Assembly (NCBI GenBank): GCA_963700985.1
Contig: OY969554.1
Span: 1,248,001-1,312,000, forward strand
Length of the DNA stretch: 64,000 nucleotides
Origin: an uncultured Chlamydiales bacterium
Lineage (GTDB): Bacteria > Chlamydiota > Chlamydiia > Chlamydiales > Rhabdochlamydiaceae
Reading direction: 5' to 3'
Below, piece by piece: positions 46,145 to 48,377 of this stretch (position 1 is the stretch's first letter; every line of letters begins with the position of its first letter). The notes under the pieces were generated by a model. The model saw only the letters and a list, made by a program, of their open reading frames with translations. It did no database searches and was not told where the DNA came from. The position numbers and the translations under genes are program-made.

Positions 46145-47140
46145 ATGTCAGTACGCTTCGATCCTTCAAGTTCATCAGCTACCAGCCCGCCTACTGTTAC
46201 TTCATCAACGACAACAACTCCTTCAGAAACGGAAAAAACTCAAGCAACAGCACAAAAAAACCTTTGTCCTGGGCCTGGATGTTCTAAACTTGCGACCAAA
46301 CTATGCGGCAGATGCAGAGCAATTTCTTATTGTGACGCACCATGTCAGAGAGCTGATTGGGAAACTCATCGAAAGGCTTGCATACCTATCAATGCACCGA
46401 AAGAAGCTGCTCCTGAAAAAAAAGAAGATCCAGTCGATGCTCTATGGAAATCCATAGAAGCGACAGCTAAATTTTGGCTGGGTGGAGGCATGATAAAAAC
46501 TCTACAATTTGGAACCTTCGAAAATTCCTGCGCCTTCTGGTCCCACATGAATGAACTTCATGAAGATGTGCTTCATGAGACATTTGCCAAAGCTGCTATG
46601 GGACATAAAGGTAATGGTGTTGCATTAGATTTAGGCTGTGGCAGGGGGGAATTTTCTCTTTTTCTTGCCTACACGAAAGAGCAGTCAGAAATAATTGCGG
46701 TTGATAGTTCAAAAGCCGCACTGAATCTTTTGGAGGAGCAAGTCAATCGCAGAAATAGCTCTTTGCTAAAGGAAGGAAAATTAAAAACCGTTCATCAGGA
46801 TATCACCGAATTTAATTTTAACCGCAAATTTGCCCTCATCGTAGCCAATGATGTTTTGCCCTATGTAAATCCGTCAAAACTACGCTCTTTATGGAATAAA
46901 ATATTCGACTCTTTAGAGCCGAACGGGCTTTTTATGGGTTCTTTATTTTATCGTTCGCAAAACCGCCACCTGTTGATTGTTAGAAAGGAAAACTTGATGA
47001 GAGAAATAGGAGCCAATTTTATCGACACACCACATATGGCCAGAAATCTATTAACGCTCACTGGTTATAAAATAGAAATCCTCCAAACTCGTTCTGAAGC
47101 TGAAGCAACTATTGATTTTGTCGCCAGAAAACAGTTCTAG
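46145..47140 (+). CDS. MYND zinc finger plus class I SAM methyltransferase (copy 1)
   Basis: CPGPGC...CGRCRAISYCDAPCQRADWETHRKAC, then LDLGCGRG; S/T-rich N-terminus. Confidence 0.9.
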   Translation: MSVRFDPSSSSATSPPTVTSSTTTTPSETEKTQATAQKNLCPGPGCSKLATKLCGRCRAISYCDAPCQRADWETHRKACIPINAPKEAAPEKKEDPVDALWKSIEATAKFWLGGGMIKTLQFGTFENSCAFWSHMNELHEDVLHETFAKAAMGHKGNGVALDLGCGRGEFSLFLAYTKEQSEIIAVDSSKAALNLLEEQVNRRNSSLLKEGKLKTVHQDITEFNFNRKFALIVANDVLPYVNPSKLRSLWNKIFDSLEPNGLFMGSLFYRSQNRHLLIVRKENLMREIGANFIDTPHMARNLLTLTGYKIEILQTRSEAEATIDFVARKQF

Positions 47141-47173
47141 CATATCAAGATGCATCTATCCCCCTAAAACCTG

Positions 47174-47233
47174 GATCAGTCTCTATCTGTTCCATACAAG
47201 GCACCACTAAAAATTTCTTAAAATTAAAAATCC
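47174..47233. repeat. Duplicated remnant of the GNAT 5' end and upstream region (copy of 45941-46000)
   Basis: Near-identical 60-bp segments, offset by 1233 bp. Confidence 0.85.
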
Positions 47234-47381
47234 TGCATGAAGAGAGCTGAAAAAGTTTGTCCCTCACGCTGAAAGTTTTATCTTGAAACGGAAGAAAGCT
47301 ATAAACATCGACTAAAAAACGAGGTAAATTTAGAATATGTAGCCCAATTATAGAGGTTTTTTTTCAAATTAAGAGGAAATT

Positions 47382-48377
47382 ATGTCAGTACGCTTCGATC
47401 CTTCAAGTTCATCAGCCACCACCCAGACTACTGTTACTCCATCAACGCCTCAGCCTCCTACTGAAACTGAAAAAACTAAGCTAGTAGCACAAAAAAAACT
47501 TTGCCCTGGGCCTGAATGCTCTAAACCTGCAACCAAACTATGCAGCCGATGCAAAGCAATTTCTTATTGTAGCGCAGAGTGTCAGAAAGCTGATTGGAAA
47601 ACTCATCAAAAGGCTTGTATACCGATCAATGCTCCGAAAGAAGCTACACCTGAAAAAAAAGAAAATCCAGTCGATGCCTTATGGAAATCCATTGAAGCAA
47701 CGACTAAATTTTGGCTGGGCGGAGGGCGAATAGAAACTTTAGGTTTTGGAAGTTTCGAAAATTCGAGTGCGTTCTGGTCATTTATGGCCAAAGATCATCA
47801 AGGGGTGGCTTCCAAAACATTTGTAGAAGCTGCGGAAAAGCCTATAGGTAAAGGTGTTGCGTTAGATTTAGGCTGTGGCAATGGAGCATTTTCCCTTTAT
47901 CTTTTATACAGAGGATGGAAAGTAGTTGCCGTTGATATAGCAAAAGGCGCTTTGGATATTCTGGAAAAGCAAGCAAACCTCAGAGATGGTTCTTTGATAA
48001 AAACGGGAAAACTAAGAATTGTTCATCAAGATGTCAACGAATTTGATCTTTCAGAAAAATTTGATGTGATTATTGCCAACGATGTTTTGCCCTACTTAAA
48101 TCCCTCAAAGCTTCGCTCTGTATGGGATAGAATCCATAATTCTCTAGAGCCTAATGGGCTTTTTATGGGATCTCTATTGTACCGTTCAAAAACTAGTTCT
48201 CCGCTCTATGCTCAAATGGTAGAGTTTATGACAAGGATGGGAGCTAATTTTATCGACGGGCCGCAAACCGCTGAAGAGCTATTAAAGCTCACAGGTTATA
48301 AAACAGAGATTTTCAAAATTCGGTATAACGAACGAGTTGAAACAACTATTGATTTTGTCGCCAGAAAACCTGCCTAA
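47382..48377 (+). CDS. MYND zinc finger plus class I SAM methyltransferase (copy 2)
   Basis: CSRCKAISYCSAECQKADWKTHQKAC and LDLGCGNG; paralog of 46145..47140. Confidence 0.9.
   Translation: MSVRFDPSSSSATTQTTVTPSTPQPPTETEKTKLVAQKKLCPGPECSKPATKLCSRCKAISYCSAECQKADWKTHQKACIPINAPKEATPEKKENPVDALWKSIEATTKFWLGGGRIETLGFGSFENSSAFWSFMAKDHQGVASKTFVEAAEKPIGKGVALDLGCGNGAFSLYLLYRGWKVVAVDIAKGALDILEKQANLRDGSLIKTGKLRIVHQDVNEFDLSEKFDVIIANDVLPYLNPSKLRSVWDRIHNSLEPNGLFMGSLLYRSKTSSPLYAQMVEFMTRMGANFIDGPQTAEELLKLTGYKTEIFKIRYNERVETTIDFVARKPA

What the first reader, a model, noticed from the sequence alone, without database searches (positions are those of the whole stretch)
46145..48377. MYND-finger/Rossmann methyltransferase fusions: SMYD-like logic with a different catalytic fold
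Seen: two paralogs with a disordered S/T-rich N-terminus, a full MYND zinc finger and a class I SAM methyltransferase domain. Established: MYND is a eukaryotic protein-interaction module that binds proline-rich motifs in co-repressors and is paired with SET domains in SMYD enzymes; the known chlamydial and Legionella methyltransferase effectors (NUE, RomA) are SET proteins. Inference: a new type of secreted effector that docks via MYND and methylates host proteins.
Basis: partly seen in the sequence, partly recalled or inferred. Interest (0 to 1): 0.72.

Follow-up and report, generated by a model that had tools for sequence, protein, structure and literature searches.

The report
Chlamydial MYND-finger methyltransferase gene pair
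Two neighbouring genes of an environmental chlamydia each join a eukaryote-type MYND protein-docking zinc finger to an ordinary SAM-dependent methyltransferase, a rare combination seen here only in chlamydiae, and they are probably delivered into the host cell, though neither secretion nor the target has been shown.

Summary
Window 46145-47140 and 47382-48377 (+) encode two 331-aa paralogs, 64% identical. Each has a disordered S/T/P-rich leader, a complete zf-MYND finger and a class I SAM methyltransferase, and both domains pass Pfam cut-offs.

The genome is a 2.07-Mb chlamydia, and these are its only two MYND genes.

The architecture is rare but not unique. After my filters, 44 of 143 distinct members of one methyltransferase family carry MYND. 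Full fusions occur in 7 of 400 sampled chlamydial genomes, and one is a RefSeq protein of Ca. Protochlamydia naegleriophila labelled only 'methyltransferase'. Among 78 MYND loci found by a motif scan of about 185,000 species genomes, only two carried the fusion, both in chlamydial MAGs. The catalytic core is widespread in chlamydiae under different N-terminal modules, and MYND presence changed at least 5 times on the tree.

The fold is nearest small-molecule methyltransferases such as TehB, in a flat ranking, so a protein substrate is unsupported. Secretion is inferred, not shown.

The parts
45975..46144 (+). Upstream region of copy 1, holding a putative promoter and ribosome-binding site. It is duplicated upstream of copy 2.
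   Evidence: MAFFT alignment of the two upstream regions shows shared blocks over about 170 bp, ending in an AGAGGA-type ribosome-binding site. Promoter function is inferred.
46145..47140 (+). Copy 1: 331-aa MYND-methyltransferase gene.
   Evidence: ORF. Pfam zf-MYND 38.8 bits and Methyltransf_25 52.1 bits. Its catalytic core is 96% identical to P0002, from another assembly.
46145..46255 (+). Copy 1 leader, residues 1-37: disordered and S/T/P-rich, a putative type III secretion signal.
   Evidence: 23 of 37 residues are S, T or P. There is no hydrophobic stretch; the maximum 10-residue Kyte-Doolittle value in the first 40 residues is -0.17. Disorder is taken from the model of the paralog. The signal function is inferred.
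46265..46381 (+). Copy 1 MYND zinc finger, residues 41-79.
   Evidence: Pfam match and the eight zinc ligands in alignment A1. Position 55 is Gly in this copy.
46433..47137 (+). Copy 1 cap plus Rossmann methyltransferase, residues 97-331.
   Evidence: Matches my core profile at 261.0 bits over positions 2-233. Pfam and NCBIfam class I families match.
47141..47381 (+). Intergenic spacer. Its last ~170 bp are the duplicated upstream region of copy 2.
   Evidence: Alignment.
47382..48377 (+). Copy 2: 331-aa MYND-methyltransferase gene.
   Evidence: ORF. Pfam zf-MYND 43.3 bits and Methyltransf_25 57.3 bits. AlphaFold model with mean pLDDT 86.8 and pTM 0.73.
47382..47492 (+). Copy 2 leader, residues 1-37: disordered and S/T/P-rich.
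   Evidence: pLDDT below 50 for residues 1-19 and 30-37. 20 of 37 residues are S, T or P.
47502..47618 (+). Copy 2 MYND zinc finger, residues 41-79.
   Evidence: Block-mean pLDDT is 92, 91, 96 and 93 over residues 41-80. The best solved-structure sequence match is the DEAF-1 MYND domain, E 1.3e-6. Q68, W72 and S55 align to DEAF-1 Q529, W533 and T516.
47670..48374 (+). Copy 2 cap (helices and hairpin, residues 97-155) plus Rossmann methyltransferase (156-331).
   Evidence: Secondary structure. VIA-align Z 20.5 to TehB 3m70 (rmsd 2.5 Å, 175 aligned). Foldseek top hit TehB 2xva, E 3.8e-13.

Best explanation
These are two tandemly duplicated accessory genes of an environmental chlamydia. They most likely encode host-directed SAM-dependent methyltransferases.

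Each protein is built in series:
- a ~37-residue disordered S/T/P-rich leader, which I infer is a type III secretion signal;
- a complete MYND zinc finger;
- a ~15-residue linker;
- a class I (Rossmann) methyltransferase with an N-terminal cap and intact SAM-binding motifs.

Proposed mechanism: the protein is exported into the host (probably protist) cytoplasm. There the MYND finger, through its conserved Gln/Trp groove, docks onto a proline-rich (PxLxP-type) motif of a host protein. The tethered catalytic domain then methylates that protein or a molecule held next to it.

Shown here: the domain make-up, the intact zinc and SAM motifs, purifying selection on both copies, the chlamydia-restricted distribution of the fusion, and the repeated exchange of N-terminal modules on one catalytic core.

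Inferred only: secretion, host docking, and the substrate.
For: Domains and motifs.

The MYND finger keeps all 8 zinc ligands. It also keeps 3 of the 5 positions named as important for corepressor binding in DEAF-1/ETO (Q68, W72, and S55 in copy 2). This rests on the alignment and the residue roles in passages of PMC3555993.

Both copies are under purifying selection, dN/dS 0.26-0.53 by region, and each has its own duplicated upstream region.

There is no Sec signal or membrane helix; the maximum 19-residue hydropathy is 0.84 and 1.06.

MYND distribution: 76 of 401 sampled chlamydial genomes and 0 of 14 control genomes. Outside chlamydiae, the scan of ~185,000 species found it largely in other protist-associated lineages: by record title, 22 of 78 loci were chlamydial, 9 Dependentiae/Babeliales, 28 unspecified and 19 other.

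The fusion itself was found only in chlamydiae:
- 7 of 400 genomes, from four family-level groups;
- 2 of 78 species-wide MYND loci, both chlamydial MAGs;
- one RefSeq protein of Ca. Protochlamydia naegleriophila.

The distribution is accessory. No ortholog was found in 5 same-genus genomes of 85-99% completeness.

The same core carries other N-terminal modules in many chlamydiae. On the core tree the MYND label needs 11 changes, and well-supported branches force at least 5. That pattern fits a re-aimable targeting module.
Against: Secretion was not tested, and no secretion-signal predictor was available.

The injectisome-specific YscC model did not reach its curated cut-off: best 91.8 bits against 238.45. 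A type III system therefore rests on one FHIPEP gene plus general knowledge of chlamydiae.

The catalytic fold is nearest small-molecule methyltransferases:
- TehB, Z 20.5;
- Rv0560c, Z 20.4;
- phosphoethanolamine methyltransferases, Z 18.2-18.8;
- the top profile hit among solved structures is plant PMT, E 1e-18.

Two of the five DEAF-1/ETO ligand-contact positions differ (Met to Thr51, Glu to Leu53), and copy 1 has Gly at position 55.

The host is unknown.
Confidence: 0.5

Rival explanations
1. The protein is delivered to the host but acts on a small molecule or lipid head group, for example a phosphoethanolamine-type amine, a halide or chalcogen, or a heterocycle. In this reading MYND only localises the enzyme to a host structure. 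This is the case the first reader listed as a refuter.
For: The nearest folds and sequence profiles are all small-molecule enzymes. Foldseek gives TehB at E 3.8e-13 and DnrK at E 2.4e-12. VIA-align gives TehB Z 20.5, Rv0560c Z 20.4, nematode and Plasmodium phosphoethanolamine methyltransferases Z 18.2-18.8, and a phosphatidylethanolamine methyltransferase Z 17.7. Plant PMT is the best solved-structure profile hit, E 1e-18. An N-terminal cap over the active site is typical of such enzymes; that point is my own knowledge.
Against: The ranking is flat, Z 17-20.5 over 50 entries. It includes protein N-terminal methyltransferases (NRMT1 Z 18.3, NTM1 Z 17.9) and a tRNA enzyme (METTL6), so fold does not fix the substrate class. 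No NCBIfam equivalog cut-off is approached: TehB scores 57.2 against 303 and 52.3 against 218. A protein-docking finger is, from general knowledge, more often paired with enzymes that modify macromolecules.
Confidence: 0.2
2. The proteins stay in the bacterial cytoplasm. MYND then serves as a zinc module that binds a bacterial partner or nucleic acid, and the enzyme methylates a bacterial substrate.
For: Secretion is unproven. The catalytic core family is broadly distributed in chlamydiae: by my count of the table, 52 of 400 genomes have a best match at E <= 1e-30. That breadth could reflect a housekeeping-like bacterial role. Members without MYND carry short N-termini. The YscC model was not matched above its cut-off.
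Against: In this sample MYND is confined to host-associated lineages and absent from 14 of 14 control genomes. The fusion is patchy and accessory, in 7 of 400 genomes and none of 5 same-genus genomes. The N-terminal module is swapped repeatedly on the core. The leader is long, disordered and variable. DEAF-1 MYND did not bind DNA specifically, according to passages of PMC3555993.
Confidence: 0.25
3. The genes are a recent, functionless acquisition or are decaying.
For: The distribution is patchy. No ortholog was found in the same-genus genomes searched.
Against: Both frames are intact at 331 aa, with dN/dS below 1 in every region. All zinc and SAM motifs are conserved across 31 diverged members. 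A near-identical ortholog of copy 1 exists in another assembly.
Confidence: 0.03

Closest known systems
SMYD lysine methyltransferases (SET + MYND; SMYD1/2/3)
   Same: A MYND finger and a methyltransferase sit in one polypeptide. The MYND here matches the SMYD2 MYND by sequence: E 1.5e-14 with the family profile and 1.7e-5 with the single sequence.
   Different: The catalytic fold is a Rossmann class I fold, not SET, and no SET match was found. MYND is an N-terminal module on a linker rather than an insert within the catalytic domain; the SMYD layout is recalled. The proteins are bacterial, not eukaryotic.
TehB and related class I small-molecule methyltransferases (Pfam PF03848, Methyltransf_25/11)
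   Same: These are the best structural matches: Z 20.5, rmsd 2.5 Å, 175 aligned, and Foldseek E 3.8e-13. Pfam TehB is matched above its cut-off.
   Different: Scores fall far below the NCBIfam TehB equivalog cut-offs. Identity is only 18-22%. The window proteins have an extra cap region, the MYND finger and the leader. In my core-profile search, family members score 115 bits or more and generic methyltransferases 99 bits or less.
SET-domain nucleomodulins of intracellular bacteria (Chlamydia NUE, Legionella RomA/LegAS4)
   Same: From recall, these are secreted methyltransferases of intracellular bacteria with eukaryote-like parts. This genome also encodes two SET-domain proteins, at G000:C1:538205-539335.
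   Different: They have a different catalytic fold and no MYND finger. Their secretion and histone targets are experimentally known (recalled), whereas nothing is known for the proteins here.
EGLN1/PHD2-type layout (N-terminal MYND + C-terminal enzyme domain)
   Same: From recall only, an N-terminal MYND finger recruits a C-terminal catalytic domain to proline-motif-bearing partners. This is the same linear layout as here.
   Different: The enzyme is a prolyl hydroxylase, not a methyltransferase, and it is eukaryotic.
MYND-less members of the same chlamydial methyltransferase family
   Same: They share the same cap plus Rossmann core, at 130-220 bits to my core profile, in chlamydial genomes.
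   Different: The N-terminus is instead a conserved '...PIVEMNDETARD...' peptide (8 loci), a '...FT(V/L)VPYA...' region of about 80-120 residues (5 loci), or something else. Of the eight relatives that lacked MYND, none showed any non-methyltransferase Pfam family at E <= 1e-4.

Membership tests
zf-MYND (Pfam PF01753) | Score above the curated Pfam cut-off | tested here: met
   38.8 and 43.3 bits against a cut-off of 22.7.
zf-MYND (Pfam PF01753) | C4-C2HC set of eight zinc ligands with conserved spacing | tested here: met
   C41, C46, C54, C57, C63, C67, H75 and C79 align to DEAF-1 C504...C540. The first pair is CX4C instead of CX2C; the rest of the spacing is identical.
zf-MYND (Pfam PF01753) | Residues of the corepressor/PxLxP-binding surface (DEAF-1 M512, E514, T516, Q529, W533) | tested here: inconclusive
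   Q68 and W72 are kept, and both are at least 90% conserved in the family. S55 is kept in copy 2 but is G55 in copy 1. T51 and L53 differ.
zf-MYND (Pfam PF01753) | Binds two zinc ions and a peptide ligand | not testable with these tools
   This needs metal analysis and binding assays.
Class I (Rossmann) SAM-dependent methyltransferase | Motif I (D/E-x-G-x-G-x-G) and an acidic residue at the end of strand 2 | tested here: met
   D162-L-G164-C-G166 and D185. G164 and D185 are invariant in 31 sequences.
Class I (Rossmann) SAM-dependent methyltransferase | Seven-stranded Rossmann-like fold | tested here: met
   The model has mean pLDDT 86.8. VIA-align gives Z 17-20.5 to 50 solved class I enzymes, and Foldseek probability is 1.00.
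TehB (NCBIfam equivalogs NF008992, NF008405, TIGR00477) | Score above the equivalog cut-off | tested here: not met
   57.2 against 303, 52.3 against 218, and 43.2 against 219.5 for copy 2; copy 1 scores lower.
SMYD (SET and MYND domain) family | SET catalytic domain | tested here: not met
   SET is not among the Pfam matches of either protein at E <= 0.1.
Type III secreted effector | The genome encodes a type III export apparatus | tested here: inconclusive
   There is one FHIPEP (SctV/FlhA family) gene at 747 bits. There are three secretin-family genes, but none reaches the YscC cut-off: 91.8 against 238.45. The rest is inferred from general knowledge of chlamydiae.
Type III secreted effector | N-terminal secretion signal and actual translocation | not testable with these tools
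   Only compatible features were seen: a disordered S/T/P-rich leader and no Sec signal.

The most novel reading that the evidence does not exclude
Chlamydiae possess one methyltransferase 'chassis' (cap plus Rossmann core) that evolution re-aims by swapping N-terminal docking modules: MYND, a conserved 'PIVEMNDETARD' peptide, a 'FTVVPYA' domain, and others. This would be a plug-and-play family of injected enzymes. In it, the MYND versions are tethered to PxLxP-bearing host regulators, such as co-repressor-like or co-chaperone-like proteins, and methylate them. The pair in this window, with its homogenised docking end and diverged catalytic end, would be two enzymes sent to the same host address with different specificities.
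Probability: 0.2. Interest if true: 0.75.

Novelty: new variant of a known kind. Interest (0 to 1): 0.55.

Why it matters
Effectors are almost unexplored in environmental chlamydiae, because most are uncultured and have no genetics. A eukaryote-type docking finger fused to an enzyme gives a directly testable handle: pull down the MYND partner and the host pathway is found.

One family member sits in Ca. Protochlamydia naegleriophila, a cultured amoeba symbiont, annotated only as 'methyltransferase'. Experiments are therefore feasible now.

If the modular-chassis reading holds, it would show how intracellular bacteria diversify effector targeting by domain shuffling. It would also add a Rossmann-fold, MYND-guided enzyme to the SET-domain methyltransferases known from pathogenic chlamydiae and Legionella.

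If the enzyme proves to act on small molecules or inside the bacterium, the finding reduces to an unusual domain fusion.

Tried and rejected
1. A 'decaying ortholog in sister species G004'. The G004:C3 MYND locus shares none of the nine window genes tested, and only the MYND part matches, at 38-44% identity. It is a different 184-aa MYND protein, so I dropped the idea.

2. Synteny in same-genus genomes. Orthologs of the flanking DAO-type oxidoreductase and P-type ATPase are 58-66% and 30-62% identical. In the closest genome (G003) they lie about 1.08 Mb apart, so this is uninformative.

3. The word-indexed protein search found only the query and P0002 with both domains, out of 43 hits. With alignment A1 it found 10 hits at E <= 1e-20. 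Its reach was too short, and the exhaustive search was needed.

4. The ESM Atlas returned only generic methyltransferase clusters at score 0.90, with no structure search possible.

5. The search for related loci with A1 failed for lack of a conserved stretch. I repeated it with the 12-sequence alignment A2. It then searched only the motif CQ[KRA]x[DH]W[PK]xH[KQ], so its counts are a floor.

6. Substrate inference from fold: both Foldseek and VIA-align give flat lists.

7. Literature. Five full-text searches found no paper on a chlamydial or bacterial MYND protein: MYND+Chlamydiae+methyltransferase, MYND+chlamydia+eukaryotic-like, zf-MYND+bacteria+effector, MYND+Legionella+eukaryotic domains, and MYND+Chlamydiae+amoeba. 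Passages read in PMC11980394 and PMC4275035 concern other matters.
   - Supplements of PMC8242063 and PMC4209131 held no 'MYND' or 'PF01753' in the files that could be searched. Five files of the first and one of the second were not searched.
   - PMC1978186, the ETO MYND structure paper, is not held.

8. Chlam_OMP6 (PF03504) gave no match in the genome or in any control, so it is uninformative.

9. Earlier-scan look-ups by words and by sequence found nothing.

10. No complex prediction was run, because no specific partner is proposed.
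Full report
**Observation**

Window 46145-47140 and 47382-48377 (+ strand) hold two 331-aa ORFs. They are 64% identical, with 213 of 331 positions matching, E 6e-152.

Pfam finds zf-MYND (PF01753) at residues 45/46-79, scoring 38.8 and 43.3 bits against a cut-off of 22.7. It also finds the usual overlapping class I methyltransferase families (Methyltransf_25, _11, _12, _23, _31, TehB) at about residues 140-270, all above their cut-offs. There is no SET match. NCBIfam gives only sub-threshold hits to many equivalogs; for example TehB scores 57.2 bits against a cut-off of 303.

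An AlphaFold model of copy 2, built on a 31-sequence alignment, has mean pLDDT 86.8 and pTM 0.73. Residues 1-19 and 30-37 fall below pLDDT 50. The MYND finger and the catalytic domain are confident. The leader is 54-62% Ser/Thr/Pro. No segment is hydrophobic enough for a Sec signal or a membrane helix.

**What organism**

The window lies in a single 2,067,302-base contig, 99% complete. The genome has:
- two full-length ATP/ADP translocase genes;
- one FHIPEP export-gate gene;
- three secretin-family genes, none reaching the YscC equivalog cut-off;
- two SET-domain genes.

Named relatives of the proteins found later are chlamydial too. The two ORFs are the genome's only MYND matches.

**How rare is the architecture**

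The word-indexed search saw only the query itself and P0002 with both domains. P0002 is 96% identical to copy 1 in the catalytic core and comes from another assembly.

The exhaustive search of 1.84 billion representatives gave 5467 hits at E <= 1e-3, 270 at <= 1e-10 and 14 at <= 1e-30. Of 36 top hits that I scanned with Pfam, 28 carry zf-MYND plus the methyltransferase.

With profiles of my own for the MYND part and the catalytic core, family members separate cleanly from generic methyltransferases: 115 bits or more against 99 bits or less. I kept near-complete, single-core, non-identical sequences. That left 143 family members, 44 of them with MYND.

With the family profile, 111 of 400 sampled genomes of the phylum match at E <= 1e-15. 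By my count of that table, 52 match at E <= 1e-30. Matches that run from the MYND finger through the core occur in 7 genomes: G000, G334, G106, G077, G251, G311 and G329. These come from four family-level groups. Five same-genus genomes (85-99% complete) had only partial, weak matches.

One fusion is a RefSeq protein of Ca. Protochlamydia naegleriophila, and another belongs to a Parachlamydiales MAG. Both are annotated only as methyltransferases.

**Is it in free-living bacteria**

A motif scan of about 185,000 species genomes, restricted to the MYND motif CQ[KRA]x[DH]W[PK]xH[KQ], returned 78 loci. By record title, 22 are chlamydial, 9 are Dependentiae/Babeliales, 28 are unspecified 'bacterium', and 19 are from other groups. 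My profiles find a MYND frame in 77 of the 78. MYND and core occur in one frame in only 2 of them, both chlamydial MAGs.

Pfam zf-MYND is matched in 76 of 401 sampled chlamydial genomes and in 0 of 14 control genomes. One family-level group has 0 of 30.

MYND is therefore a recurrent accessory domain of environmental chlamydiae, and the fusion was found only there. The scan is a floor, because only one motif was searched and some contigs are truncated.

**Anatomy of the family**

Across 31 diverged fusions the invariant positions are six zinc ligands plus G164 and D185. The other two zinc ligands are at least 90% conserved, as are Y62, Q68, W72, D162, Y238, P241, G259, F325 and K329.

I aligned the MYND finger to DEAF-1 and read the alignment against passages of PMC3555993. 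All eight zinc ligands correspond. Of the five residues that paper names as important for corepressor binding:
- Gln and Trp are kept (Q68, W72);
- Thr is Ser in copy 2, as that paper states for ETO, but Gly in copy 1;
- Met and Glu are replaced (T51, L53).

Members without MYND carry other N-termini. Eight loci have a conserved '...PIVEMNDETARD...' peptide, five have a '...FT(V/L)VPYA...' region, and others differ again.

On a FastTree of the core (148 rows including 5 outgroup sequences, with weak deep support) the MYND label is clustered: 11 changes against a shuffled mean of 38.2, and 0 of 500 shuffles were as low. Well-supported branches still force at least 5 changes. The window pair groups with P0002 and P0045, at support 95. 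N-terminal modules have thus been exchanged, gained or lost repeatedly on one core. Truncated gene calls among metagenomic sequences may inflate this count.

**The pair itself**

The duplication carried about 170 bp of upstream sequence. By Nei-Gojobori, dS is 0.26 for codons 1-96 and 0.83 for codons 97-331. dN/dS is 0.53 and 0.34 for those two regions.

I read this as purifying selection on both copies, with gene conversion or a younger history at the 5' end. The docking end is kept alike while the catalytic ends diverge. Copy 1 is closer to P0002 than to copy 2, so the duplication predates that split.

**What the enzyme acts on**

The family profile's best solved relatives are plant phosphoethanolamine methyltransferases (E 1e-18). 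For the MYND part the best are SMYD2, SMYD1 and SMYD3.

Foldseek ranks TehB first (E 3.8e-13), followed by DnrK and METTL6.

The Foldseek-independent aligner gives a flat list:
- TehB, Z 20.5;
- Rv0560c, Z 20.4;
- phosphoethanolamine methyltransferases, Z 18.2-18.8;
- NRMT1, Z 18.3;
- yeast NTM1, Z 17.9.

Small-molecule enzymes lead, but protein methyltransferases are within about 2 Z units. Substrate class is open, and nothing here supports 'methylates host proteins' specifically.

**Explanation and rivals**

I favour, at about 0.5, a secreted enzyme that is docked by MYND and acts in the host. The grounds are:
- the lifestyle of the organism;
- the restriction of MYND, and of the fusion, to host-associated bacteria;
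- the accessory and modular pattern;
- the leader;
- the retained Gln/Trp groove.

Secretion, docking and substrate are all inferred.

The rivals are:
- the same delivery but a small-molecule or lipid substrate (0.2);
- an intrabacterial role (0.25);
- a functionless acquisition (0.03), which intact frames, conserved motifs and dN/dS below 1 argue against.

**Comparison with what is known**

The proteins work like SMYD enzymes only in pairing MYND with a methyltransferase. They fail SMYD membership, because they have no SET domain. They also fail TehB equivalog membership.

In layout they are closer to eukaryotic enzymes with an N-terminal MYND, such as PHD2 (recalled, not tested here). The SET-type bacterial methyltransferase effectors NUE and RomA are recalled too; this genome has its own two SET genes.

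Five full-text searches and two supplement searches found no description of a chlamydial MYND protein. Some supplement files could not be searched.

**Verdict**

This is a new variant of a known kind, namely candidate effectors bearing eukaryote-like domains. It belongs to a small, undescribed, chlamydia-restricted family that has a tractable member in a cultured symbiont. Interest 0.55.

Noticed in passing
window 6401-7582 (+) and 7636-8901 (+): Two tandem leucine-rich-repeat proteins of 394 and 422 aa (LRR_8, LRR_4). This is another tandem pair of eukaryote-like repeat proteins in the same window.
   Followed up: no
window 30029-30931 (+): A 301-aa protein matches the mitochondrial carrier family (Mito_carr, E 8e-23). 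This is a eukaryote-type carrier in a bacterial genome.
   Followed up: no
window 23601-24668 (+): A 356-aa Fic/DOC-domain protein. It could be a host-modifying or toxin-type enzyme.
   Followed up: no
window 27245-27856 (+) and 55513-56787 (-): Homologs of both CAAX-processing proteases are present: an Rce1-like protein, and a Ste24-like M48 peptidase with the CAAX prenyl protease N-terminal domain.
   Followed up: no
window 9106-10059 (-) and 12890-14388 (+): A tyrosine recombinase of the phage-integrase family lies near an AbiEii-type toxin gene (13504-14388). The toxin gene is preceded by a 205-aa ORF with no Pfam match at 1e-8.
   Followed up: no
window 48436-48711 (-), 50692-51216 (+), 51236-51997 (-): Three ORFs flanking the pair have no Pfam match at E <= 0.001: a 91-aa cysteine-rich protein, a 174-aa protein with a long hydrophobic stretch, and a 253-aa protein with a serine-rich N-terminus. 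The last two might be further secreted or inclusion-membrane proteins.
   Followed up: no
G000:C1:538205-539335 (outside the window): Two adjacent, divergently oriented SET-domain genes, in open frames of 219 and 214 aa (66.5 and 71.6 bits against a cut-off of 22.4). They are candidates for the classical SET-type chlamydial methyltransferases.
   Followed up: no
L016, L018, L019, L021, L023, L025, L026, L028; and L029, L031, L033, L035, L041: MYND-less members of the same methyltransferase family carry two other conserved N-terminal elements: a '...PIVEMNDETARD..IW' peptide, and an ~80-120-residue region with 'FT(V/L)VPYA'. Of the eight relatives that lacked MYND, none showed any non-methyltransferase Pfam family at E <= 1e-4.
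   Followed up: partly
G010 (15 MYND matches); P0048 (918 aa, 13 matched stretches); P0044 (488 aa): One same-family genome has an expansion of MYND genes. Some metagenomic proteins carry many MYND repeats. P0044 has two tandem copies of the catalytic core and no MYND.
   Followed up: no
G334:C2:152290-152961 (-): A second, shorter MYND-methyltransferase fusion occupies a 247-aa open frame in G334. That genome also has a full-length fusion, so tandem or multiple copies are not unique to this window.
   Followed up: partly
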